Shown here: in pieces, positions 948 to 22,805 of the stretch | Numbering within the stretch: position 1 is the first letter of the stretch | Layout: every line of letters starts with the position of its first letter | Assembly: GCA_030167865.1 (NCBI GenBank) | Contig: JALAGF010006036.1 | Coordinates: forward strand, 1-40,287 | From: Craspedostauros australis | Lineage: Eukaryota | Reading direction: 5' to 3' | Length of the DNA: 40,287 bases | Program-made: the position numbers and the translations under genes | The notes under the pieces: generated by a model | The model's database searches: none | Told to the model about the DNA's origin: nothing | Seen by the model: the letters and a program-made list of their open reading frames with translations, nothing else

Positions 948-2183
948 CTACTTGTGCCGGATGTAGGCCAGCGTATCCTCCTTGGAGGTTTGCTCTGCGT
1001 TAAACCTGCTGTGAAGTGGATACCCCGTGATGATCTTCTCCTGATACCACTCCATCGTGATCTGCTGCAAGACGGCCTGATCACAAACGGTGTGGTTCGA
1101 CTGCAGCATGCGGCGGTTCATCTCCTTCACCAACGGGATGACGATCGACCGATGTCCGCCGATGATGCCGGCGTTCACGAAGAGGTGGAAGTCGAACGGC
1201 TTGCCGAGACATTTCATCGTGGTGTCTCTTTGCCATCCCAAACCCAGCTTGTTCGGTTCGAATTCGCTGCCGACGAACAGATGGTGCTTGCCCTCCGTCA
1301 ACTTGTCCATCTCGATCATGTATCGGAACGGGTTGCGGTAGATCATGACGTCTTGCACATCTGTGAGCAGGATGTAGTCCATGTGTTCATCGTGCTTCTT
1401 GTCTCCCTTCGACTCCGCCTCAATTCGCTTGTCGAGATAATCCTCGATGAAGAAGAAGCGCTGATTGTTCAGGGACTGGTTGGCACACTTTTGGAACACC
1501 GGACCCTCCAGGTCCACTTGGACGAAGCTTATGGCATCTGTCGTGCGTTCTTTCACGAACTGCTCGCCGTACATGGAGTTCAAGATGACCCCTTGGACGT
1601 CCGTGTGCTGACTCACGGATTTGTACCACGGATTGATGAACTTCGTCTTTGCCTGGCGCTGTACATGGAGTTGGTGCGTGTCCTCCTTGTGGTTGAATAT
1701 GCCCACGATGGCGGTTCCGGGGTATCTCTGTTCTTCTTTCTTCTCTTCCTGCTTCTCGTCTTTGGCTACGACTACGACTTCTGGCACCGGCACTGGCGGC
1801 GGAGGTGGCGGCGTCTCTGCTTTGCGTGCAACGGACTCGGTCAGCCTGGAGAGCTGAGACTGCGCGTCCGTCTGAAACTGCTGCAGCAGGCTCTTCAGCG
1901 ATCCGCATTGCTGCAGAACTCGCGTTTCCATCTCCTTTTGCTGTTCCTGTTGTTGCTGCTGGTGCTGCAAATGTTGCTTTTGCAGTTCCAGGAGTAGGAC
2001 CTGCTGCGCATCCTGTCTGACATCTTTCGCATCGTAACTCTGGTATGATGAAATCTGCATCAAGAGCTGGACGAGGACGATCGTCAACACCGCCAATACC
2101 ATCACCACCTTCCCCTGCACACCCAAATTGCGAGGCGCTCGCGCAGTCTTCGGCAGGCCTGCCGTGTGTACGAAATTGGACAT
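948..2183 (-). CDS. Putative type II membrane GT-A glycosyltransferase-like protein, paralog 1 (411 aa from first ATG)
   Basis: N-terminal hydrophobic anchor (VVMVLAVLTIVLVQLLM) and a Q/P-rich stem. The catalytic-like domain has YILLTDVQDV, FVGSE, NAGIIGG and CDQ motifs, resembling the lysyl-hydroxylase (PLOD) glycosyltransferase domain. Strongly similar to 3711-4790 and 20439-21653. Confidence 0.8.
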   Translation of the reverse strand: MSNFVHTAGLPKTARAPRNLGVQGKVVMVLAVLTIVLVQLLMQISSYQSYDAKDVRQDAQQVLLLELQKQHLQHQQQQQEQQKEMETRVLQQCGSLKSLLQQFQTDAQSQLSRLTESVARKAETPPPPPPVPVPEVVVVAKDEKQEEKKEEQRYPGTAIVGIFNHKEDTHQLHVQRQAKTKFINPWYKSVSQHTDVQGVILNSMYGEQFVKERTTDAISFVQVDLEGPVFQKCANQSLNNQRFFFIEDYLDKRIEAESKGDKKHDEHMDYILLTDVQDVMIYRNPFRYMIEMDKLTEGKHHLFVGSEFEPNKLGLGWQRDTTMKCLGKPFDFHLFVNAGIIGGHRSIVIPLVKEMNRRMLQSNHTVCDQAVLQQITMEWYQEKIITGYPLHSRFNAEQTSKEDTLAYIRHK

Positions 2184-2185
2184 GG

Positions 2186-2208
2186 TTCTCTCTCTCTCTC
2201 TCTCTCTC
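2186..2208. repeat. (CT)n microsatellite immediately upstream of paralog 1 ATG
   Basis: Visible tctctc... run. Confidence 0.9.
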
Positions 2209-3710
2209 GAAGTGGATCCTGGAATGCTCGTTGTGCTTTTTGTGACCTCTCGCTGGTCGTCTCTCACAATCCGCATCGGTCATAATAATGATGGCACCAG
2301 CCTCCTCAGCGACCAGAATCGCGGTGATGCTTGGAAAACTTTGCCCACGATTTTGGCGCCGATGCCCACCACGGAAAAACTTGTTGCGCTCAGACGTCAC
2401 GCATCAGAACGACGACGACAGCAAATTCACTGCTTGCGTGTGTTCACGTGATTCATTGCCACCAGGGTGACGGAACCAATCGCCTGCCAATCAAATCTCT
2501 CAATATGCACGACTTGTTTATTCGCCACCGACATCTGCGATTGTGAACAAAGCAGAATGAGAGTTGGAATTCGCGTGTTGTCGCCATACGATCCGGAGAA
2601 CTGCCGGTTTCAGAGAGACCGTTTGATGCAGTTCAAGAGAGGTGAACTTGTTGAAGATGTGTTACTGTAACGATGAGTAGAGTAGTTCTGTTTGTACTAA
2701 TCTTGGCTTGTGATACTTTGAGTTAGTTAGTAGTCTTGGTAGGATGAAGAAACGATGCCACACAGTTGATACGGCTCTGCACTGATCCACATGGTTCAGT
2801 GTTGAGGGTGGGCATTGCTCCTTGCTCTTGTTCATCTCTCTGTGTGCTGTTGCTTGTAGTGTAGAGCATAACAGCTCAGCACTTTATTGAAGTTGAGACA
2901 AAGATGCAGCAGCAGTTGTGGTTGGAATTCACCATCGGATTCCCTGCTTGGGTTGAAGTAGGTTGGATATCCATGCTGTGACTGTAACAACAAGGTGGTT
3001 GTCATAGTCAAAGAGGGAATTGAGACAAGTTGCAGTTAGTAAGATCTGAGGAGCATAGTTCCAAGGACAACTGGAATCGGGTTGATCATGGCATTGAGTC
3101 AGCAATGGCTCGTGAATGAAAGAGGAGGGGAAAAGAAGAAAGGGGGGTGTTGCGTTCGTTGAAGTCGGAAAGTTACGCGCGAATAGTGAATTTCAAGCAT
3201 CGGCGAGGGACACCATAATTGGGAGGTAGCCTGTCCCTAATTGAAGTTCAACTATGAGAAAAATAGTGTCCCAAGATGTTTCCACAGTTTCTCAGAAGCA
3301 CGTTTCAACCTGTCTCCGAAGTCGCACCTTGCGGAACGAGGAACACCCAGTTGAGTCCAATGGATCAAGAATATGATTCACGGATTGTCAGTCCGGCAAT
3401 GTCACTGGGACAAACTCTGGAGGCTGCTTGGACACAAACCAAGCACCTGTGTTCCAAGTTCGCCAGGACGCACTTCAGCGGCTGGCGCAACTTGATCCAG
3501 GTCCGATACGACCCACAAAACGGAGCATGGTCTATGAGTACATCTGACACACGGTACTTCTTCTGATGCCATACGCTATGCACGAGTGAGTACGGCAAGA
3601 CTCCACCAGTCGGATGATCATTTCTCTCTAGAGAGAGTATTGGGTTGAGCACAGATCTCCTCCCTTACATGCCTAACCAGCATGTGGCATGTTTTGCGCC
3701 ACCATGCATC

Positions 3711-4790
3711 CTATTTGTGCCGAATGTACGCCAACGTGTCGTCTTCGGCCCGCTGCTCCTTCTTGAAACGGCTGTTCCACGGATATCCCGTGATGATCCT
3801 CTCCTCGTACCACTCCATCGCGATCTGCTGCATGACGGCCTGATCGCAAACGGTGTGATTCGCCACCATCATGCGGCGGTTCATCTCCTTGACGAGAGGG
3901 ATGACGATGGAGCGATGCCCTCCGATGATGCCGGCGTTGAGCACCTCACGATATAAGAAGGGCTTTCGGAAACAGCGTTTCCAGTTGTTGTTCTGCCATC
4001 TCAAACCGTCCTTCCATGGCTCGAATTCGCTACCGACGAAGAGGTGATGGGTGCCCTGCGTCAGCTTGTCCATCTCGGCCATGAACTTGAACGGATTGCG
4101 ATGGAAGGTGACATCTTGGGCATCGGTGAGGAGGATGTACTCCAGCTCTTCGTCTTGTCCCGATGCCTTGGCTGCTTCCGCCTCGACGCGTTTGTCCAGG
4201 TAGTCCTCGATCACGTAGAAGCGTTGGTTGTTGAGGGATTGGTTGGCACCCCTGAGGTAGGCCGCGCTGTTGAAGTCGACGTTGATGAATTCAATGTGGT
4301 CCGTGGTGTACAGTTTGATGTCGCTCTCGTCGTACATGGTATTGAAGACGATGCCATGGATTTCAGGGTATTTCTTGACAGATTCGTGCCATGATTGGAT
4401 GGACTTGTACTCGACCTTCCGCTTCGCACCGCGCATGTGGGTGTCATTCTGGTGGTTGAAGGCCGCGATGATGGAAATCCCGGCATACGTCGTTTCTGCC
4501 GGTGTTGCTGCCTCCGCGATGGCAGGCAGGGGCGCTGGCTTCCCGTTCGCGATCGCCGCCGTCAAGTTCCACAACTGCCACTGAGCCTCGTTGTGCTGCT
4601 TCTGGATCAGAGTCTTGATCTCCTCGTACTGCTTCTGCTCTTGGGCCGACTGCGGTCGCGCGGACAGCTGGAGGAAGGCGAAGGCAATCACCAGAAGCAC
4701 CGCCATGTAGCTCTTCTGCGTGCTCGTGCCGCCTGCGGGGGATGGCGCGATTGCAGAACCTCGTGCGGCTGTTAATTTCGTTGTGGTCAT
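3711..4790 (-). CDS. Putative type II membrane GT-A glycosyltransferase-like protein, paralog 2 (359 aa)
   Basis: TM anchor YMAVLLVIAFAFLQL; motifs YILLTDAQDV, HHLFVGSE, NAGIIGG, CDQ; ends TLAYIRHK like paralog 1. Confidence 0.8.
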   Translation of the reverse strand: MTTTKLTAARGSAIAPSPAGGTSTQKSYMAVLLVIAFAFLQLSARPQSAQEQKQYEEIKTLIQKQHNEAQWQLWNLTAAIANGKPAPLPAIAEAATPAETTYAGISIIAAFNHQNDTHMRGAKRKVEYKSIQSWHESVKKYPEIHGIVFNTMYDESDIKLYTTDHIEFINVDFNSAAYLRGANQSLNNQRFYVIEDYLDKRVEAEAAKASGQDEELEYILLTDAQDVTFHRNPFKFMAEMDKLTQGTHHLFVGSEFEPWKDGLRWQNNNWKRCFRKPFLYREVLNAGIIGGHRSIVIPLVKEMNRRMMVANHTVCDQAVMQQIAMEWYEERIITGYPWNSRFKKEQRAEDDTLAYIRHK

Positions 4791-5639
4791 GGTGAAACGG
4801 CTCGTTTTCTTCTATAAGACCCTGATGCAGATAAACCCATAAGTAGCCATCGAGAGCCGTTAAAGACGTTAAATCACGTTTTAGCGTATAAACCACCCAC
4901 CCCTATAGAATAAAGTGAGAAACTAACTATGGTGTCAGTCTGGGCTTCCAGATCGGGGTGGTTGCAAAGATATAGATGCTTAAACCTCGGATGGCATCTA
5001 CGGGGTAGAGGCGTACGCAAGCGCAGACGGATAGTTTTGCTAGGGTTCCGACCGTGAGGTTTGCGTGTTGCCGTCGCGTTGGTGGGGTTTCCAATGTTTT
5101 GGGGGACCCTATGCGCAAGATGTGATCGTTTGTTCCTTCGGAGATTGCATTGCTATTAGTATTTGGCTTGCTATCAGACGACAGCGATGTGGTTCTATAN
5201 GGCGTGCAGTCGTATTGTGACGGAGTGCTGTACGNGGCCAGTCTCCNGTATCATGTTTGCATTCTTTTCTTCCTCCCTGCTTCCCTTTCGCGACGTGTTG
5301 AGGCCCATCGCATCGCTGGCATATGCTTATCCCGTGGGACTTCACCAACCACTACCAACAGTAATAGGTGATATNNNNNNNNNNNNNNNNNNNNNNNNNN
5401 NNNNNNNNNNNNNNNNNNNNNNNNTTGGCTTGCTATCAGACGACAGCGATGTGGTTCTATACGGCGTGCAGTCGTATTGTGACGGAGTGCTGTACGGGGC
5501 CAGTCTCCAGTATCATGTTTGCATTCTTTTCTTCCTCCCTGCTTCCCTTTCGCGACGTGTTGAGGCCCATCGCATCGCTGGCATATGCTTATCCCGTGGG
5601 ACTTCACCAACCACTACCAACAGTAATAGGTGATATGGT

Positions 5640-11184: not shown

Positions 11185-13755
11185 GGAGGCGGCGAAAAGC
11201 ATTGTCAATGCAGCCATAGATAAGGAGCGGTTAATCAGTGGGCTATTTAGTTCTGTACGTTTATCCTCTTCCTGCGATGTATGGCGCAATTTCTTTGTCG
11301 TATCTCTGTCTCTTTTGTTTGTTGTCATCCATGTTTTGGGATCCTCCCCTGCAAGCAAATAGGTCATGTACTGGGACAACTGGTGGTGACAGCCATGAAC
11401 TGCCAGTGCGCGGAGAATCCAGAAGTGTGGGTACTTCCATGGGCCAGTGCATGCAAGCAGTACAGTAGGGGGCGCTGGTGGTAGACATCTACAGGCAAGC
11501 ACGGTGGAGCTCAAACCGCAAACGGAAACCAAACGTAGTGAATGGAGACGTAGGACTGTTTGGCGACAATGAAGTGAATGACACATCATGGGCAGGAACA
11601 TTGGCGCTGCACGAGAGACCGATGCCTCCAGAGTACAACGAACTTCCCCCTGGGAGAGTTGCCGATATAGGACGATTTGTTGATTGACAACTCGTGGCGC
11701 CAGTGGTCCACCCGTNAATCTTAGATGGAATTACATGTTGCACTTCTTGGCTCAAGCNACCCTACGTCGGCACGCAACCAACAGCGGCAATCATCCAAAG
11801 GCCTACTCACAACCAGATCTCTTTTGCTCTTTTTGCATCTTTTGTTAGTCGCTGCCTCTCTTGAAGCACATATAGACATCCGTTGCGGCGCTACCATGTA
11901 CTCATTGCATGAGACTTCACGCAGCACTATCTCAAGTGATCAGTGGTACGGTTTGAATCTCCCTTGCCCCTCTGCTGCGGTGCATTGCGTGTTTCTGTGC
12001 TCGTATCGATGGTTCCTTGTGTACGCATTCTTTCTCTGGAGTAAACATTTGGCAACAGCTGGATCCTGAACTGGTACGGCTGGTGACGATGGGCACCCAG
12101 CTGCCAGTGTGCGAAGAATCCAGGGGTGCAGAGACTTCTGCAGGTGGGCGCATGCAAACAGTTGCATAACAATTGACTTCTACTTTTTTCTGTTTACTCT
12201 GATCGCATCAGTGCTCATATGCAAACAATCCATCACACATCGCACTCCCCGCACGCGAGGAAGCAGAGAGAACAAAGGATGGACTGGGGATTGATTTGAA
12301 GAAGTGGCCTCCTTTGAAGCACGTACTCCATTGGTTCTGTTAGTTGTGAAGGACACACAGACCCTACAACAAAGAGTGCCCAGATCGCGCCATGAAGCAA
12401 CTCCCAGATGCCTGAGACGAGATGCCAACGATTGCAATCGTCAGGTGCAGGAATGCTTTTGTTGCCGCCATTTCGGAATGCGTTCAGGATGCTGGTATGC
12501 AACCCCAGCANNNNNNNNNNNNNNNNNNNNNNNNNNNNNNNNNNNNNNNNNNNNNNNNNNNNNNNNNNNNNNNTACTTCGCAGGATCTGCGTGCTTGATG
12601 GTTCGAGAGGACTCAGCGTTTCCGCCATACTTCCTCGTTGTATCACGCACAGCACAGGGACATCGTCAGGATGATAATCCCAATCGTAATCGCAACAGTC
12701 ACGATCGTTGCCGTCGTCGCCATTGTCCCAATCCAGGAGCACGTTGTTGTCTGTATTCATGTCATCACTACAATCAGGGATGATGTTGTCAACGCCATCC
12801 TGTACCAACGGAAACAGCTGAGCACCTTTCACCGATCGGAGACAAGTGGAACCATGGGAAGAATCATGGACGGAACGACGGGGCGAACGAGAGAGAGGCG
12901 ACATGATGCGATACTACGAGGAGGATGAGAGTTAAAGGAGGCTGTGTACAACGGGGAGTGCGTCGTGGTTGAGGATTGGGAGAATGGCTAGAGGCAAGGA
13001 AGAAGCAAACGCTGAGGGGCTCCACTCCGCCAGCAACAGTACATGTTTACAACACACAACATCCATGTACGAAATGTGATGTGTGATTTTGAGAGCAAAG
13101 CAGTTTCGGCCACCCAGGATTGATTGGAAGGAGGTGGAAAAACCGAAGTCTGGACACCCACCCGTCAAAATCCCCGTGAATGCGAAACACGAACCAAGCA
13201 CACAACGCGGAAAACTGCGAGAGGGGAAGGCTAGGGGCATCAAAATAAGTTATATCATATCTCTTGAACCACATCTTCTATGAAGCTCAAAGTCTCCAGG
13301 TATAGGTTTTAGAAGGTTATGAAGACGTCTATGTGGTTTATATTGTGTTTAGAGACAACAAACCTCGAGCTCCTCACGAGGTCTCTCGATGGGGCATATG
13401 TGGTTTATCTGCAACAGGGTCATAATATAGAATAATAGCCACAATGCTTGGCTCCGTCAAGAGGGTGGAATGTGGAATGTGGATTGTGGATGTTGGTGTG
13501 GGATGGGATGGGACGGTGTAATAACACGAGTGAGTGCGCGTTGCTAAGATTTTCGTCTTTGGCTACCAAAGAACGGCCGCAGCAGTTACTGTTCCCAACG
13601 TCAAAGGATACAACAGTCCAACGCGTTCGCAGAACAGCTGCGTTTCGCGTGACCTTGAGTGATCACGGGTTTGGCCACGTGCGAAAGAACTTTGCGAAAA
13701 AGATGCCCAACGTCCGCACCGAGTCGAAGGACGGACGGAAACTTCGGCAAAGGGG

Positions 13756-13930
13756 CAAACCGGGATACGTACGAAACCGTTGAAACGGCGTTACACGATA
13801 GCCGCCACTACCAATCATGCACAACACAGCAATAAGACAACTGCGCTGACGCATACGACATCGATAAGACTCATAATCTGCATCTTTACTCTTTTTCACT
13901 CTAAATCAGTTTCACGTGTGTCGTAACTTG
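13756..13930 (+). repeat. 5' LTR (175 bp, CAA...TTG)
   Basis: Identical to 19976-20150 by eye. Confidence 0.95.
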
Positions 13931-14406
13931 GTTTATCATTCTCATCCGCTTATGCGGGCATGTGCGAGCGTGCAGGGACCGCCTGAAGAGGCGACGATAA
14001 CACTGGGACCCCGCTCCGAGGGTGGACCGTCACCAAGCCGGCACTGCTTGTATTGTGCTGCATCCTCTTTGACCATGGTGTGTTGATGCAGAGTGACCGG
14101 CATCAACGGGATGCAATCCTGCCGTTCGCATTGCGAGGTTTGGATGACACCGGTGGACGCACCGACCGTAGGTCACACGGAGATCCCTACTGAGACACAC
14201 GCTGTTATCAGCGAAAAGATCGTGTGCCTTGTTGCCCGGTCTGTGCTTCTCATCGTGGATCGACACCGCGAAAACACACGTTGAAACGCTTTTTCACGTC
14301 GAAAACACACCATGTCCCAGTGTGATTTTCTTGACAACACAATCTCTCTCCCTTCACTACTTCTCTCTCATCCTCATCAACAACACTATACACGAACATC
14401 AACAAC

Positions 14407-15900
14407 ATGGCAGCCGCTGCAAACCCCAACGTCAACGAGATACGTGATTATTGCAAGAACGTACTCAGCTTTCCTGATGATGACATCGTCGACGCCTTGG
14501 AGGATCAAGGTCTGACCAAATTCGACGATTTCCTCTCCATCACTGACGAAGGCGTTACTGCCCTGTGCAAGCGCATCTGTGACGGTAGCGGATTCATCGA
14601 AAATCCTGCATACAAGGCGGGAGCCAAGGGCAACATACCACCGCAAATCAAGGACCCAGGCATCAGCGTTGGTTGGGTTCATGAAACGAAACTGCGCCAA
14701 CTTCGCTATGCACGATTCCACTTCCAACGTATTCAACGCCCCTTTACGGCAGCAGAGGCGCCCATGGATCGCCTCGTTGCGCTGTGGGAGCTCTTCCTCG
14801 AAGAACAACGTATCAAGAAGGAAACCGAGATGGACATGCCAGAACGGCTGGTCAAAGTTGACCGTGTCCGTGACAGCCTCGAAGACATTCAGAACTACTT
14901 GGAGAACACACATGGTGCACTCGACGCTCCGCTTTCCTATGTGATCCGTGAGGATTCACGTAAACCTGAAGACCGCACACCAGCCATCAATGACGGGTTT
15001 GGTGTACCCACCATGAAGGAGGAGCTGATCGATCGTGCAATCCATGAAGGCATCCGCTACGATGCTGACAACGCAAAAGTGTGGCAGGTCGTTCGCCATG
15101 TCACACATGGCGGACCTGCATGGGCTTGGGTCCAAGGCTTCGAGCGCGCACGCAATGGCCGTGCAGCATTCATTGCTCTCAAGGAACACTATCACGGCGA
15201 CTCCTTTCAGGCGCGCACCAAGGCAGCAGCATCCAAGACGATTGCCACCAGTTTCTACGACGGCAAATCACGCCAGTTCTCATTCGAACGATACGCACAG
15301 ATCATGAAAGGCGCATTCGAAGACATGGCAAGATGTGGTGAACCACTTGTGAACGCGGCGAAAGTGCGCCACTTCCTCGACGGTATCCGTGATTCTCGTC
15401 TCGACAGTGCATGCGTTGCTATCAAGATCAACAAAGCCCTTCGTGAAGACTTGCCCGGGGCCATCAATGTCCTGAGCGAAGTCATTGACCACAAGCAAAT
15501 CGCGTCACCCAGACGTTCTATTGGCTCGATGGACCGTGGCAAGGGCGGTCGTGGCAACCGCAACGGAACACCAAGCAAGGGTGGTCGTGGAGGCCAAGGC
15601 AAACCCAAGAAATATGATCCGAACATGGTCATCACCGATCGCCACTACTCACCCGACGAATGGTCGGTCATGTCATCCGCACAGAAGACCAAGGCACTCG
15701 AGATGCGTGCGGAACGAGACAAGCGCCGTGGGGTTATGTCGGTGGGCAGAAACACACCTTCGAAGCGTCCGCATGAAGAGACGGCTGGCCATTACGGGCC
15801 AACTGATGCTGCTAATCAAGGCGGTAGTCCATCTGGCACCAACAATCAAGCTGGAATCGGCAGCATGGCCACTCGTCGCAACCAACAAGGACGTTCTTGA
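14407..15900 (+). CDS. gag: Gag-like protein of the copia element (497 aa)
   Basis: First long ORF after the 5' LTR. Contains PLSYVIR, GPAWAWV...NGRAAFIALKEHY and KVRHFLDGIRD, with an RGG-rich C-terminus. Confidence 0.9.
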   Translation: MAAAANPNVNEIRDYCKNVLSFPDDDIVDALEDQGLTKFDDFLSITDEGVTALCKRICDGSGFIENPAYKAGAKGNIPPQIKDPGISVGWVHETKLRQLRYARFHFQRIQRPFTAAEAPMDRLVALWELFLEEQRIKKETEMDMPERLVKVDRVRDSLEDIQNYLENTHGALDAPLSYVIREDSRKPEDRTPAINDGFGVPTMKEELIDRAIHEGIRYDADNAKVWQVVRHVTHGGPAWAWVQGFERARNGRAAFIALKEHYHGDSFQARTKAAASKTIATSFYDGKSRQFSFERYAQIMKGAFEDMARCGEPLVNAAKVRHFLDGIRDSRLDSACVAIKINKALREDLPGAINVLSEVIDHKQIASPRRSIGSMDRGKGGRGNRNGTPSKGGRGGQGKPKKYDPNMVITDRHYSPDEWSVMSSAQKTKALEMRAERDKRRGVMSVGRNTPSKRPHEETAGHYGPTDAANQGGSPSGTNNQAGIGSMATRRNQQGRS

Positions 15901-15936
15901 CCGCAAGGTCACACACGGCGGCTTACATCCATCAGC

Positions 15937-18900
15937 ATGTCTCTGCCATCTGATACCCCACGGGCAGAACTCGATTCGCATGCGGATACATGCTGTTTTG
16001 GTAACACTGCGTACATTGTGCATCAGACCGACCAAACCGTCACTGCAACCCCTTTTATTGACTCACTTGGGTCCATCGATAATGCACCAATCGTCACAGC
16101 TGCGATAGCATACGATGACCCAATTACATATCAAACATTCATTCTTTTCTTTCCACAATCGATCTATTTTCCTCGTCTTGAACATCCTTTGTTGTGCCCA
16201 AACCAAATGAGGGCTGCGGGTATAGTCGTGAATGATGTTCCTCTGCTCATGATCAAAGAGCACGAACGGAAGCCGGAAGACCACTCTGTGGTCTCATCCG
16301 ACGACGACCTACACATCCCTCTACGATTGCAAGGCACTGTATCCTACTTCCACATGAGGAAGCCAACACAACAAGAAGTCCAATCCGATCGTGACTGTAT
16401 ACACATCACGATGACACAAGAGGCCACATGGGACCCCTCCCAGTGGTCGTCAGGGGACGACGAAGATGCCATCCGTGCGTCTCTCTCATCACAACGAACC
16501 ATATCGTCCATTCACATCCACGGTACACACACGTCCAACCGAAAGGGGACTATCACACCCGACGTCCTCGCACAACGCTGGCGCATCGGAACAGAAGCTG
16601 CATCACGCACGCTGGACGCCACCACACAATTGGCCATTCGTGACTTTCGTCATTCATCAGGTACACGTCGTCTCAACCCATATGCCATGCAACTACGATA
16701 TCGTCGGCTCAACACCCAACTGTACGCCGATACCATGCACGCAAAGACCAAGTCGATTCGTGGCAACAAATGCGCCATGATATACTGTACACCGTTTCAC
16801 TGGGTCCGAGTGTACCCAATGGCGGAACGCAAGGAAGCACATCGCACACTTGACGAACTGTTTCGTGACCACGGCATCCCACACACCATCATTCCTGATA
16901 ACGCCAAGGAGCTCGTCGCTGGCGAATTCCGTCGCAAACTACACAAAGCACAAGTTTCCATCCGACCGATCAAAGCATACATCCATAATCAGAACAAAGC
17001 AGAAGCAACCATCCGTGAGCTTTGACGTCACTATCGGCGGCTGATGACCTCGACCGATACACCAGAGTACCTGTGGGACTACTGCTTCGAGTACTGTGCC
17101 GAGATACGCAGTCACACTGCACTCGCCATCCATGATCTTCACGGCGAGACACCGGCCACCATCTTGTCCGGTGACACTGCTGACATCTCTCACATTGCTG
17201 AATTTGGCTGGTTTGACTTCGTGTGGTACATCAATATCCAAGATGCATCCATGAACGTCAAGCAGCTTGGTCGATACCTTGGGCCAAGTCGCTCTGTTGG
17301 TGATGCAATGTGCTCGTACATCCTCACTGCCAATGGCGTTGTTGTTTCCAAATCCTCTGTTTTGCCTCTCTCTCACGACGACACACACAGTGATGTAATC
17401 GCGTATAAATGTAATGAGTTCATGGACACACTTCGATCCAAATGGAAGCAACGAATGGAGGGCATCACAATCGACGATGACGGCGACGACATTGACGATA
17501 CTGCAGCAGACATCGCCATTCTGCAGAACACTGAACCATTGGAACAAATCGTGGAACCAGACGATGTTGACAGCGCGACCTTCGACAAATACATTGCAAC
17601 TAAAGTCATTCTACCGACAGGGGACGAAATGCAACATGGAACAGTCAAACAACGCAAACGGGACACAGAAGGCAACCTCATCGGTCGCTCTCATCCGAAT
17701 CCTATGCTTGACACCGCCCAATACGAAGTCGAATTCCTTGATGGACACCACGAAGTGTTCAGCGCCAACCAAATCGCGGAGAACATCTATGCGCGCATCG
17801 ATGACGACGGATATACGACTATGCTGATGGACGAAATCATCGACCACAAACGCTTGCCCTCTGTTTCTTCTCCTTCTCCCCATTCCAAATCCACAAAAGG
17901 CTGGAAACTCTGCATCCGATGGAAGGACGGGTCCACATCCTGGATTCACCTACGCGATGCAAAAGAAGCCGACCCAGTACGCGTTGCCGAATACGCTGCA
18001 GACAACAAGCTCGTCAACGAACCCGCATTCAAATGGCGGGTACCACACACCCTACGCAAACGACAACGCATCATCATGGCAACGAAGCGACGACACGTCC
18101 GAAAGAACGAGATGTTCGGCGTGGAGCTTCCTACATCAGTGCGTCACGCACTCGCGATTGACACAGCTACAGGCACGGATCTGTGGCGACAGGCCATTGC
18201 GAAAGAAATGAAGGCCGTGCGACCAGCATTCGATATCAAGGAACTGGATACTCCCGATCCTGTGGGCTACCAATACATGGAATGCCACATGATATTCGCC
18301 GTCAAGGTGGACCTCACCAGAAAGGCGCGACTTGTCGCTGGGGGACACATGACGGAGACACCTGCAACAATCACATACGCGAGTGTGGTGTCACGCGAAA
18401 GCGTACGCATCGCGTTTTTGATCGCCGCACTCAACGACTTGGACATCCTTGCTGCGGATGTGCAGAATGCATACCTCAACGCCCCATGTCGAGAACGCAT
18501 ATACACGCGATGCGGTCCGGAGTTTGGATCCGATCAGGGGAAGATCGCAATCATTTGTCGGGCCCTGTACGGATTGAAGTCGAGTGGAGCAGCATGGAGA
18601 GCACACTTGGCAGAGACACTGCGCGATTCGTTGGGATTCACATCCTGTCGTGCTGACAGCGACGTCTGGATGAAGCCTGCTGTTGCGAGCGATGGGTCAG
18701 AGTATTACGAATACGTGCTCGTGTACACCGATGACATCCTGGCTGTATCCAAACAACCACGACGCATCCTCGATGCGATTGACTCACACTTTTTTCCTCA
18801 AACCGAGTTCCATTGGCCCGCCTACAACATATCTTGGATCGACCATCTCGCAATTTCACCTCACTGCCGATCCGTCATGTCCCAAATGGAGCATGGGCTC

Positions 18901-19804
18901 ACAAGAATATATCAAGTCTGCTCTCAAGATCGTCACCAAATACCTCAACGACCACAATCTGCGACTCAAGACCAAAGCACCCAGCGTCCTACCGAACAAG
19001 TACCGACCTGAATTGGATGGATCGCAACTGTGTGACTCCGAGCAAACAACCTTCTATCAGCAACTCATTGGTATACTGCGCTGGACTGTGGAGCTTGGAC
19101 GAATCGACGTTTGCTGCGAGACCTCGATGATGGCATCGTACTGTGTCGCGCCACGAATTGGTCACTTGCATGCTCTCTTTCACATGTTCGCATACCTCAA
19201 ATCTCACGATCGTTCTCGCCTTGTTTTTGACGATGCATACATTGACAAACCGCCTGTGATGCAACCCAACTGGAACGATTTCTACCCTGACGCCCATGAG
19301 CAAATGCCTGCTGACATGCCACCGCCTCGCGGAAAGGAGGTTCAAATGACATGCTTTGTTGATGCTGATCATGCAGGTGACCGCGTCACGCGACGCTCAC
19401 GCACTGGTGTGCTTTTATTCCTGAATACATCACCGATACTGTGGTACAGCAAGAAACAGAACAGCATTGAGACATCCACATTCGGCAGCGAGTTCACAGC
19501 ACTCAAGGTTGCAACCGAGATCATCATCGGCATGAGATACAAGCTCCGCATGATGGGCATTCCACTTGACGGTCCAGCGGATGTACGGGTCGACAACCAG
19601 AGTGTGGTGTACAACTCCTCACTACCAGAATCACAATTGCGGAAGAAAGCCAATGCCATCGCATATCATTTCGTCCGAGAAAGCATCGCCGCGGGCATCT
19701 TGGTGGTCCAACATGAACCGTCAGAGACCAACTTATCCGACATGCTCACGAAACAACAACAAGGACCGAGACGAAAAGAACAAGCACAACGGGTCCTCTT
19801 CTGA
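15937..19804 (+). pseudogene. pol: Pol (protease, integrase, chromodomain-like, RT, RNase H), interrupted by one nonsense codon and one frameshift
   Basis: PR ELDSHADTCC; IN YADT...IIPDNA...AEATIREL; RT KARLVAGG, DVQNAYLN, ALYGLKSSG, YTDDIL; RNase H FVDADHAGD...SRTG, SEFTAL, NLSDMLTK. In-frame TGA at 17023-17025 and an extra T in the T6 run at 18790-18795. Confidence 0.93.
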
Positions 19805-19975
19805 CCTCGGCGCTGCACAATAGTACCCATGGGTGGTCAGTCATGGGCTCTGCTCATGACTGGTGGGATGAGCGCCCTGTGGTGTCCACATGCGGGGCAT
19901 GCAGCAGGTACATCCCGAATGCAACCAAAATGTGACGATACGACGGCTAGCACAGCCACCGCGCATCGAGGGGAC

Positions 19976-20150
19976 CAAACCGGGATACGTACGAAACCGT
20001 TGAAACGGCGTTACACGATAGCCGCCACTACCAATCATGCACAACACAGCAATAAGACAACTGCGCTGACGCATACGACATCGATAAGACTCATAATCTG
20101 CATCTTTACTCTTTTTCACTCTAAATCAGTTTCACGTGTGTCGTAACTTG
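19976..20150 (+). repeat. 3' LTR (175 bp, CAA...TTG)
   Basis: Identical to 13756-13930; preceded by PPT GAGGGG plus AC. Confidence 0.95.
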
Positions 20151-20438
20151 GGGGAAAAGCGAAGATGGCGCCGAACCCTGACACAGTTGTTGTTCTTTTC
20201 AGAGGATGGACATTGGTCAATAGAATGCACTACTCTACCTATGTATCAGTTTATCTCTGCATTGATAAAATCCTCCTGATCATACCCACTCGTGGATCTC
20301 CTTGCTTCTGTTTGGGCACTACCACCTATTCCCGACCTTGTATCTACGTGCGTGAATCTCCCGCCGTATCGTAGCCCGTGCGCACCTGGCCCCATTCGAT
20401 ACCGAATACGCGTCCTGCGCCTGCGCGAGAGCGGGAGC

Positions 20439-21653
20439 TCACTTGTGGCGGATGAACGCCAGCGTGTCGGTCTTCTGCTTTTGCTCGGCCTTGAACTTGC
20501 TGTGCAACGGGTATCCTGTCACGATCCTCTCTTCGTACAACTCAAACACAATCTGCTGCAGCACGGGCTGATCGCAGAAGGGGTCCTTCGCCGTGAGCAA
20601 TCGGCGGTTCATCTCCTTCACCAACGGACCGATGACGGATACATGCCCGCCGATGATACCCGCGTTCACCATCTGTTGATTGGTGAACCTCTTTTTGAAG
20701 CATCTCCTCCAGTTGTTATTATTCCATCTCAGACCCGTCTTCCATGGCTCGTACTCGCTGCCGACGAATAGATGGTGATTATCGCCGTCCGCCGTGGCGT
20801 CCACCTCGATCATGTATTGGAACGGGTTTCTGTGGAACGTGACGTCTTGCGAATCCGTCAACAGGACGTATTCCAACGGCTCATCGGGATTGGCGGTCCC
20901 CTTCGACTCCGCCTCGAGGCGCTTGTCCAAGTACTCCTCGATGAAGAAGAACCGCTGGGCATTGAGGGCCAGGTGGGCGGATTTGGCCCCAGCCGGACCT
21001 TTGGTGTCCACGTTCAGGAATTCGATGTGATCCGTCGTGTATTCCTTGATGAATTTCTCGGGGAACATGGAATTGAGAATGAGGCCATGGATATCTGGGA
21101 ACTGCTTCACGGATTCGTACCATGATTTGATGGCCTTGAATTCTGGTTTGCGCACACCCAAGTTCCTGTGCGCATCTTCCATATGATTGAAGGAGGCGAC
21201 GATGGAGAGACCAGGATATCTCTTCTTCTGTGCCTGCACTTGCACTTGCACCTGTGCCTGTGCTTGTGGTTGCTGTTGCTGCTGTTCCTTTGGTGACTGT
21301 TGTGCCTTTGATGACTGTTCTGCTAACAACTGTGCCAGTTGTTGCTGTTGCTGCTGAAATTGGGTTTGCTGCTTTCGTTGCTCCTGATGATGATGTTGCT
21401 GCTGCTGCTGATGTTGTTGCTGTTGTTGTTGCTGCTGCTGAATGAGCTCCTTCAGCTCTTCCAACTGCGCCATCGTCACCGAGTTCTGTTCATTGGACAT
21501 GCTGCTGAACGATCCCAGCCCGACAGACAGTTGCACCACGATGACCGCAAGTACCAGCAGACCCATCAAGTTCGTGATTTGGATGTTGGATCGAGAGGAT
21601 ACCACCGACCGCAGTGGCGCGGCAGGGTGCCCGTTGGTTTGCGTACCTCCCAT
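20439..21653 (-). CDS. Putative type II membrane GT-A glycosyltransferase-like protein, paralog 3 (404 aa)
   Basis: TM anchor LMGLLVLAVIVVQL and polyQ stem; motifs YVLLTDSQDV, HHLFVGSE, NAGIIGG, CDQ; ends TLAFIRHK. Confidence 0.8.
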   Translation of the reverse strand: MGGTQTNGHPAAPLRSVVSSRSNIQITNLMGLLVLAVIVVQLSVGLGSFSSMSNEQNSVTMAQLEELKELIQQQQQQQQQHQQQQQHHHQEQRKQQTQFQQQQQQLAQLLAEQSSKAQQSPKEQQQQQPQAQAQVQVQVQAQKKRYPGLSIVASFNHMEDAHRNLGVRKPEFKAIKSWYESVKQFPDIHGLILNSMFPEKFIKEYTTDHIEFLNVDTKGPAGAKSAHLALNAQRFFFIEEYLDKRLEAESKGTANPDEPLEYVLLTDSQDVTFHRNPFQYMIEVDATADGDNHHLFVGSEYEPWKTGLRWNNNNWRRCFKKRFTNQQMVNAGIIGGHVSVIGPLVKEMNRRLLTAKDPFCDQPVLQQIVFELYEERIVTGYPLHSKFKAEQKQKTDTLAFIRHK

Positions 21654-22805
21654 GTTCAGGGTGCAGAGATGCTCGTGCTCGCGTGGATGCTGGGGAACAA
21701 GTGCGTGCCGTTGGTTGTGGTGCTCGTTGTGGTGCTGGTTGAGGTTGTGGATGTGGATGTGTCCGTATTTGTGATTGCGATTGTAGTCTCCAGCGATGGT
21801 TGTGATTGTGGTTGTGATTGTGGTTGTGATTGCGGATGTGCGCGAGCGGCGGTGTGATGTGGTGGGAGGTGGTGTGACGCGGGACGATGGGAGGCTGCGA
21901 TTGGAGCCTGCTGTTGTTTTGTGATGAGGTTTGAGTCATTCGCGGAGTGCGGATTGTGATGACCGAAACCCAAGACCAACCACCTTGTCGCCAACACGCC
22001 CAGGGGCTTTTGTGTCGCCAAGTACCTCAATTCCTGTTGTTCGTCAGAACTGTCCGGTCATTTCTGTCCGCGTGGACAGAAACGGACAATACATGGAATT
22101 TCCGCAATCGAGAGTTTGTGGTTCGAGCATGTCGTCAACAGACAAATTCTGGTTCAACTCCCGCACAGACAGCCAACAGAGAGACGGAGACAGACAAGCG
22201 CAGTCGTCGGAGGTTGGGGCAAAGGAAGCACCATCGCGGCTGCGCGGGAGCAAGCTCTTTCCCTCTATCAACGCTCATCTTCATTGCGATGACGAGCGTG
22301 ATGCTGCGCAATACAAGTTACAGTTGGTTTCAGTCAGGGTTCATTCCATTCTTGGAGAGTAGGTGGACCGGCGGAATTCGGTCTGCGGTTGGGAGAAGAT
22401 GCAAATGGAGCCATGGAGTCCGCATCCCAGCACCGCTTTCCGTCTCCATCTCCTTCTCCTATCTGATATGCCTACAAAGTCACGAACACAGACGGCCTGC
22501 TTCTTTCTTTTCGGAAAAGTAGACGAATCCAATTGGGTTTGTTGGTTTGTGTTGTGTATTTATTGTTCGTTTTGAAAGTTTACAGGTCTGGCTACGGTGC
22601 TATGGTATGCAATAGTACCGATTGGAGATATTCTTCATCTGTGGGCAGCTGGTGTCATTGCTGCTGCTGCCGATGCTACCGCTGTTTTTCAGGTCTCACC
22701 AACGGTGACATCACTTCCGTCCACAACGAGTTGGCGCGGAGTGGTGATGCGGCGACGCGGCGACGCATGGATGGATGAATGGAAAGATCATGAGAAGGAG
22801 GTGGC

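What the first reader, a model, noticed from the sequence alone, without database searches (positions are those of the whole stretch)
13752..20154. Copia element with reversed LTR termini (5'-CA...TG-3'), AC/GT processing dinucleotides and a 4-bp TSD
Seen: both LTRs begin CAAACC and end AACTTG, and GGGG flanks the element. Internally the 3' LTR is preceded by PPT(GAGGGG)+AC and the 5' LTR is followed by GT, so the predicted linear cDNA ends are ACCAA...TTGGT, a perfect 5-bp inverted repeat. Established: LTR elements almost always end TG...CA, integrase joins a CA-3'OH (HIV removes GT from CAGT), and copia usually makes 5-bp TSDs. Inference: this integrase trims 2 nt and joins a TG-3'OH with a 4-bp stagger, meaning altered end specificity. 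Such elements would be missed by TG..CA-filtered LTR finders. I cannot confirm whether this is already described for CoDi-I.
Basis: partly seen in the sequence, partly recalled or inferred. Interest (0 to 1): 0.8.

Follow-up and report, generated by a model that had tools for sequence, protein, structure and literature searches.

The report
Diatom Copia retrotransposon with CA…TG ends
A recently inserted jumping gene, probably of a diatom, whose end repeats read CA…TG instead of the near-universal TG…CA in essentially every copy; it belongs to a wider lineage whose integrase apparently joins DNA ends ending in G, and it most likely starts copying itself from a cut isoleucine tRNA.

Summary
Observation confirmed. 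The 6,395-bp Copia element has identical 175-bp LTRs reading CA…TG and a GGGG duplication. Across three families in this genome, 80 of 80 LTR hits start CA and 78 end TG (two truncated); duplications are 4 bp. The 4-bp duplication and non-TG…CA ends are already published for diatom CoDi3/CoDi4; CA…TG was not found in print, but this scan noted CA…TG and CG…CG elements in other genomes. The 'processing dinucleotide' reading is doubtful: the GT is the start of a primer-binding site pairing with inosine-edited tRNA-Ile from nucleotide 40, flush with the LTR, and AC looks like the end of the polypurine tract (also kept in a central copy). Best model: flush cDNA, joined at TG-3'OH without 2-nt trimming (about 0.6); trimming remains possible. 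The ends are not 'reversed': the families nest in a supported clade (UFBoot 100) of mostly C-starting elements (CG, CA), sister to TG…CA elements, and this clade carries Asn instead of Trp in the integrase active-site loop. New variant of a known kind.

The parts
13752..13755 (.). left target-site duplication GGGG
   Evidence: 4-bp length fixed by other copies
13756..13930 (+). 5' LTR, 175 bp, 5'-CA…TG-3'
13931..13950 (+). primer-binding site flush with the LTR: GTTTATCA (13931-13938) pairs with tRNA-Ile(IAU) nt 40-33, plus a second box near 13943-13950; 14-nt perfect match in sister copies
14407..15900 (+). gag-like ORF (497 aa from ATG), ends in a TGA that is in frame with pol and shared by other copies; no Pfam hit at threshold
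15901..19804 (+). pol, order protease (motif at 15967), integrase (D 16720-16737, D 16888-16905, loop and E 16978-17004), RT (18322-18735), RNase H (19355-19753); this copy is broken by a stop at 17023-17025 and a frameshift near 18790
16543..16550 (+). central polypurine tract AAGGGGAC, just upstream of the integrase core
19968..19975 (+). 3' polypurine tract GAGGGGAC, flush with the 3' LTR
19976..20150 (+). 3' LTR, identical to the 5' LTR
20151..20154 (.). right target-site duplication GGGG

Best explanation
A young Ty1/copia retrotransposon of the diatom CoDi type. Minus-strand synthesis is primed by a 5' half of inosine-edited tRNA-Ile cut after nt 40, annealed flush against the 5' LTR; plus-strand synthesis is primed at GAGGGGAC flush against the 3' LTR (with a central copy). 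The linear cDNA therefore most likely ends at the LTR ends themselves (5'-CA…TG-3'), as Ty1 cDNA does, and the integrase joins TG-3'OH at both ends to target DNA with a 4-bp stagger, without removing a dinucleotide. The terminal rule was lost in an ancestor of a wide clade (left ends CG or CA, i.e. joined 3' base G), together with a Trp-to-Asn change in the integrase active-site loop; CA…TG arose from TG…CA by transitions, probably through CG…CG. Shown by sequence: ends, duplication, primer complementarity, clade, loop residue. Inferred: primer cleavage, flush cDNA, causal role of the loop, order of changes.
For: Ends and 4-bp duplication. Primer: of 43 tRNA 5' halves, Ile(AAU read as I34) pairs contiguously from leader nt 1 for 8 nt (window), 14 nt (L004, L164, L177); next best tRNA 3 nt; best duplex for the window leader, -25.4 vs -19.1 kcal/mol. 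27 of 79 metagenome loci show the site, 25 as the exact 14-mer. Same flush register for half-tRNA-Lys, 15 nt, in a TG…CA family. Precedent for edited half-tRNA-Ile: Bianca. Jatropha Copia: families with a 2-nt spacer before the PBS have extra bases after GGGGGAG, those without have GAGGGGGAG flush. Ty1 ends flush and needs no processing. Central tract: 13 of 42 rows keep the G run at that place and all 13 keep AC, although the encoded residue varies in the wider family (Thr 30 of 62). Last two PPT bases vary to AG, GC, CG in relatives that still have GT after the LTR. Tree. Loop: Asn in 18 of 18 rows of C-starting elements, Trp in 23 of 23 T- or AC-starting rows of the surrounding clade; retroviral-type integrase fold; the matching PFV/RSV loop separates the end strands and stacks on the penultimate pair.
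Against: No cDNA end or 2-LTR junction was seen, so flush ends are inferred. AC is the exact complement of GT in most of the clade, and all three TSD-verified families with strongly altered ends (CA…TG, AG…CG, TG…GA) have AC/GT outside, as a trimming model predicts. RNase H may leave primer bases or cut before AC. For two leaders (L042, L146) another tRNA gives the lowest duplex energy. Asn in the loop also occurs in distant TG…CA (L107) and TA…TA (L050) families, the correlation rests on about two independent origins, and the loop is one residue shorter than in PFV, so residue matching is uncertain by one. Metagenome ends were read from PPT/PBS position, not from duplications; 16 of 79 loci were unreadable. 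The own-genome CA…TG group is the first branch of the clade, so the tree does not show CG coming first.
Confidence: 0.6

Rival explanations
1. One reading: the cDNA carries AC…GT outside the LTRs (GT copied from two primer bases left by RNase H or from a primer cut two bases earlier; AC left by cleavage after the G run), and integrase trims GT as HIV integrase does. The integrase may then read the invariant outer GT, which would free the inner dinucleotide to drift.
For: GGGGAC before and GT after the LTR are clade-wide while inner ends vary (TG, CG, CA, AG, TA, CC, AC left; CA, CG, TG, TA, TT, GA right); inverted repeats extend through AC/GT; canonical members read ACTG…CAGT, as HIV-1 does (HIV ends recalled).
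Against: GT is forced by tRNA pairing; AC is kept at the central tract; symmetry is absent in AG/GT, GC/GT, CG/GT and CG/GA relatives; no spacer between LTR and PBS in any family, unlike Copia families with extra bases.
Confidence: 0.25
2. Asymmetric ends: one end flush and the other trimmed (one leftover primer base at the right end, or AC at the left end), as in foamy virus, where only U5 is processed.
For: Foamy virus precedent, also with a 4-bp stagger; the data at the two ends are independent and do not require symmetry.
Against: No direct evidence; Copia families have extra bases at both ends or at neither.
Confidence: 0.12
3. The ends are tolerated rather than recognised: the copies were inserted by another family's integrase or by host repair.
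For: The window copy's pol is broken although its LTRs are identical, so this copy may have moved in trans.
Against: Precise ends and 4-bp duplications in dozens of copies of three families; several copies of the same family have uninterrupted 1,300-aa pol frames; CG/CA ends track the pol phylogeny.
Confidence: 0.03

Closest known systems
CoDi3 and CoDi4 families (CoDi-I lineage) of Phaeodactylum tricornutum and Thalassiosira pseudonana (Maumus et al. 2009, PMC2806351; Filloramo et al. 2021, PMC8147415, Suppl. Tables 10, 11)
   Same: Copia domain order; 4-bp duplications; about 6.4-6.7 kb with short LTRs (CoDi4.2/4.3: about 162 bp); at most one stop between gag and pol; TG/CA missing in CoDi3.2, 4.2, 4.3.
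   Different: Listed non-canonical motifs are TATA, TACA, TGTA, TTCG, TGAG, TGGA, TGAT; all start with T and CATG occurs in none of the 14 supplementary files. No primer is named in the passages read. Placement against the named references was not tested.
Bianca lineage of plant Copia (Neumann et al. 2019, PMC6317226); Osser/Bryco and, from recall, Drosophila copia and Ty5
   Same: Primer-binding site complementary to a half tRNA cut in the anticodon stem; Bianca uses A-to-I edited half-tRNA-Ile.
   Different: Different host and lineage; that survey kept only TG…CA elements.
Non-canonical plant LTR elements (Tos17 TG…GA, AtRE1 TA…TA, TARE1 TA…CA, TGTT and AACA; LTR_retriever survey 10.1101/137141; PMC5659011)
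   Same: Copia elements with short LTRs and non-TGCA ends.
   Different: They keep one canonical end or the first T; CA…TG differs at all four positions, symmetrically, across a clade.
Zam/errantivirus LTRs (AGTTA…TAAYT; PMC3601003)
   Same: A whole clade without TG…CA.
   Different: Gypsy superfamily; joined base is T, not G.
Ty1 integrase (PMC8487063)
   Same: Flush cDNA ends without 3' processing (proposed here).
   Different: Ty1 integrase needs terminal CA at physiological metal levels.

Membership tests
Ty1/copia LTR retrotransposons | pol order protease-integrase-RT-RNase H | tested here: met
   motif positions; RVT_2 E 3.3e-16, rve E 0.02 (below cut-off); integrase model matches intasomes, best E 8e-10
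Ty1/copia LTR retrotransposons | direct LTRs, PBS, PPT, target duplication | tested here: met
Ty1/copia LTR retrotransposons | usual (not obligatory) TG…CA ends and 5-bp duplication | tested here: not met
   CA…TG and 4 bp; accepted exceptions
CoDi-I (CoDi3/CoDi4) | RT clusters with the named CoDi-I references | not testable with these tools
   no named CoDi protein among the 240 listed homologues; Maumus supplement unreadable
CoDi-I (CoDi3/CoDi4) | diatom host | tested here: inconclusive
   named homologues are diatom proteins, atlas clusters mostly Bacillariophyta with few records; host not named
CoDi-I (CoDi3/CoDi4) | 4-bp duplication, gag-stop-pol, size like CoDi4 | tested here: met
CoDi4.2/4.3 or CoDi3.2 specifically | TA…TA or TA…CA/TG…TA ends | tested here: not met
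half-tRNA-primed Copia (Bianca/Hemivirus-type priming) | PBS complementary to a tRNA 5' half ending in the anticodon stem | tested here: met
half-tRNA-primed Copia (Bianca/Hemivirus-type priming) | cleaved tRNA is the primer in particles | not testable with these tools
   needs primer mapping
retroviral-type 3'-processed ends | cDNA carries extra dinucleotides that integrase removes | tested here: inconclusive
   no junctions found; indirect evidence leans against
CMCT/CACTA DNA transposons (CA…TG ends, 2-5 bp duplications) | DNA transposase, no RT, no direct LTRs | tested here: not met
   RT/RNase H and direct LTRs present; CMCT ends

The most novel reading that the evidence does not exclude
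A diatom Copia clade has switched, not merely relaxed, the most conserved rule of retroelement integration: its integrase joins G-3'OH ends (CG, TG), through a Trp-to-Asn change in the end-contacting loop that arose at least twice (C-starting clade and the AG…CG family), possibly while reading an outer GT that is dictated by the tRNA-Ile primer rather than by the LTR.
Probability: 0.3. Interest if true: 0.75.

Novelty: new variant of a known kind. Interest (0 to 1): 0.56.

Why it matters
Terminal CA-3' is described as invariant for retroviral integrases and required by Ty1 integrase. A clade with natural series of ends (CA, CG, TG, GA, TA, TT) and matching integrases makes the question of what reads the terminal dinucleotide directly testable by comparison. 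Practically, diatom LTR annotation with TG…CA or T-first motif lists will drop or mis-trim several abundant young families (at least 40 LTR hits each for three families here); the 14-nt half-tRNA-Ile site and GGGGAC tract are better anchors.

Tried and rejected
Chance GGGG match, 3-, 5- or 6-bp duplication, or TG…CA boundary: rejected. A tRNA-Ile gene with a GAT anticodon as primer: the pattern search gave one hit, equal to control; the nuclear AAT gene read with inosine explains the site. 2-LTR junctions: none in the genome by pattern or among 297 loci (56 short-motif hits, none continuing as LTR). Sequencing runs: none was listed, so no reads were laid. Named CoDi references: none listed. 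Sequence-level match of the integrase to solved structures: only weak (best E 0.016; none relevant), so loop residues were matched by motif and paper numbering, not by a printed structural alignment. Literature: ten searches; the PBS 14-mer occurs in no paper; CA...TG/CA..TG with retrotransposon and LTR gave one paper, on DNA transposons. Not seen and possibly relevant: Maumus Additional file 1, LTR_retriever Table S2, Neumann supplements, parts 2-4 of Filloramo Table 12 (no motif column), Repbase, GyDB and subscription papers. 'Reversed TG…CA' by inversion: rejected as unnecessary, the LTR is in normal orientation and relatives show intermediate ends. DNA transposon: rejected. Earlier findings by sequence: none.
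Full report
Observation. The window holds two identical 175-bp direct repeats at 13756-13930 and 19976-20150, starting CAAACC and ending AACTTG, with GGGG on both outer sides, GTTTATCA after the first and GAGGGGAC before the second. Between them lie a gag-like frame, an in-frame TGA shared by other copies, and a pol with protease, integrase, RT and RNase H motifs in Copia order. This copy's pol has a stop at 17023-17025 and a frameshift near 18790; several other copies have uninterrupted 1,300-aa frames. A model of the integrase from another copy (pLDDT 88) matches retroviral intasomes (best E 8e-10).

The boundaries are family traits. The LTR search gave 41 matches; all 30 fetched start CAAACC and 29 end AACTTG, one running into N. 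Two sister families were searched the same way (40 matches each, 30 and 20 fetched). Together 80 of 80 start CA and 78 end TG, two being truncated. Nine of 13 LTRs scored as solo have a 4-bp duplication and four have none; none has 5 or 6. Pairing left and right flanks gives 11, 4 and 4 four-base matches against 0.6, 0.5 and 0.2 expected, and 1, 0, 0 five-base matches. Some loci are duplicate assemblies. Against: two full elements lack a duplication, and one old copy among 20 further stretches ends TA. Target sites lean to C first (16 of 39) and G last (17 of 39).

What the GT is. The genome's nuclear tRNA-Ile(AAT) genes have the anticodon arm TGGGTCTAATAAACCCA. With A34 read as inosine, the complement from nt 40 backwards is GTTTATCAGACCCA, which is the sequence immediately after the 5' LTR in sister copies (14 nt) and, for 8 nt plus a second box, in the window. 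Among 43 tRNA halves the next best pairs 3 nt in that register; Ile is the best duplex for 7 of the 9 GT-starting leaders. In 79 metagenome loci of relatives, 27 show the site and 25 the exact 14-mer. A distant TG…CA family in this genome has a 15-nt match to half-tRNA-Lys(CTT), again from nt 40 and flush with the LTR, with GA and CG as flanking dinucleotides. Edited half-tRNA-Ile priming is published for plant Bianca elements (PMC6317226, passages); that Drosophila copia and Ty5 use the same register is recalled. So GT is primer-binding sequence, and appears on the cDNA only if RNase H leaves two primer bases or the primer is two bases shorter.

What the AC is. GGGGAC is the clade's polypurine tract, also in TG…CA members; variants end AG, GC or CG with GT still after the LTR. 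A central copy at 16543-16550 is kept in 13 of 42 aligned rows, always with AC, although the residue it encodes varies in the family (Thr 30 of 62); these rows are related, so this is few independent events. In Jatropha Copia families, a 2-nt spacer before the PBS goes with extra bases after GGGGGAG, and no spacer with a flush GAGGGGGAG (PMC3852365, Table 1 passage). Ty1 ends flush and needs no processing (PMC8487063, passages). This favours flush ends (0.6). The trimming model stays alive (0.25) because AC complements GT across most of the clade, and because the three duplication-verified families with the most altered ends, CA…TG, TG…GA and AG…CG, all have AC/GT outside. Foamy virus shows that one-sided trimming exists (PMC6784120, passages). 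No junction sequence was found to decide.

Evolution of the ends. A tree of RT-RNase H (81 sequences, 296 columns, FastTree; 57 of them in IQ-TREE with a shortened search; rooted on the half-Lys family; L043 dropped as too short) puts the own-genome CA…TG families in a clade with UFBoot 100 whose 26 metagenome members start CG (15, one unsure), CA (5), CC (1), AG (2) or TG (3). Its sister is TG…CA (L164, L172). Of 37 labelled metagenome loci outside, none starts with C (31 TG, 3 TA, 2 AC, 1 unknown); 16 of 79 were unreadable. These ends were read by eye from PPT and PBS position, not from duplications; L166 and L177 give self-consistent CG…CG inverted repeats. CA and CG interleave, as repeated transitions (for example at methylated CpG; diatom CG methylation recalled) would give; the own-genome group branches first, so the order TG, CG, CA is a mutational argument, not a tree result. 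AG…CG and AC…TT arose separately.

Integrase. In the loop before the catalytic Glu, all 18 rows from C-starting elements have Asn where all 23 T- or AC-starting rows of the surrounding clade have Trp; the AG…CG family also has Asn. In homologue sets the position is Asn in 74 of 86 parsed (120 listed) near this family and Trp in 94 of 101 parsed (120 listed) near the TG…GA family. In PFV, Pro214-Gly218 separate the end strands, and RSV Gln151 (PFV Gln215) stacks on the G opposite the C of CA (PMC6784120, PMC7955051, passages). The match is by motif and uncertain by one residue, and Asn also occurs in distant TG…CA and TA…TA families, so this is a lead.

What is known. Maumus et al. (PMC2806351; abstract, passages, first third of Results; supplement unreadable) report TG/CA missing in CoDi3.2, 4.2 and 4.3. 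Filloramo et al. (PMC8147415; passages, methods section, Tables 10 and 11 whole, Table 12 part 1 of 4) list 4-bp duplications for CoDi3/CoDi4 and motifs such as TATA, TACA, TGTA, TTCG; CATG is in none of 14 files. In plants only the first T of TGCA was invariable (10.1101/137141, passages), with AA…CA as an exception (PMC5659011, passages); Zam elements lack TG…CA as a clade (PMC3601003, passages). PMC4139406, PMC7773854, PMC10959353, PMC12130899 and PMC12730594 were read as passages for background. Searches found no description of CA…TG LTR ends or of this PBS; the library lacks subscription papers, Repbase and GyDB. Named homologues are diatom proteins but none is a named CoDi, so CoDi-I membership is by resemblance only. 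This scan has noted CA…TG and CG…CG Copia elements with 4-bp duplications in other genomes; those are unchecked notes, not support.

Verdict. Real feature; works like a half-tRNA-primed CoDi3/4-type Copia; new variant in that all four terminal bases differ from TG…CA across a clade that joins G-ended DNA. The 4-bp duplication is ordinary for the group and the processing claim is unproven and probably unnecessary. Interest 0.56.

Noticed in passing
L107 (also L112, L118, L120), right after the 5' LTR: TG…CA Copia family with 5-bp duplications whose PBS matches the 5' half of tRNA-Lys(CTT) for 15 nt from nt 40; the papers read name only Met, Ile and Arg internal primers.
   Followed up: partly
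L121, L134-L148: Family with AG…CG ends, about 294-bp LTRs, 4-bp duplications, half-Ile PBS and the same HNQN integrase loop as the CA…TG families despite a separate position in the tree.
   Followed up: partly
L042, L122-L133: Family with TG…GA ends, 244-bp LTRs and 4-bp duplications.
   Followed up: yes
L048-L050: Single-ORF (2,250-2,580 aa) Copia families with TA…TA ends, PPT AAGGGGCG, half-Ile PBS and a 5-bp duplication (one case).
   Followed up: partly
window 15898-15900: gag ends in a TGA in frame with pol in all five other copies shown, including the distant L042 family: likely stop-codon readthrough.
   Followed up: no
window about 16560-16650: The helical region before the integrase core shows no HHCC zinc motif in the family alignment.
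   Followed up: no
L152, upstream of the integrase core: GGGGAC occurs a few codons upstream of the usual central tract and in another reading register (Gly-Asp), a hint of DNA-level selection including AC.
   Followed up: no
window 948-2279, 3711-4811, 20439-21935 (minus strand): Three paralogous host genes (about 70-74% DNA identity) with a hydrophobic N-terminal segment, Gln-rich linker and a shared C-terminal domain with a D-x-x-D motif; glycosyltransferase-like by eye, not tested.
   Followed up: no
window 4799-4837 and 13402-13440; 5163-5374/5425-5636; 9461-9539/9590-9668: A 39-nt imperfect inverted repeat pair 8.6 kb apart enclosing two near-identical short duplications, just left of the element; possibly another mobile element or assembly duplications.
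   Followed up: no
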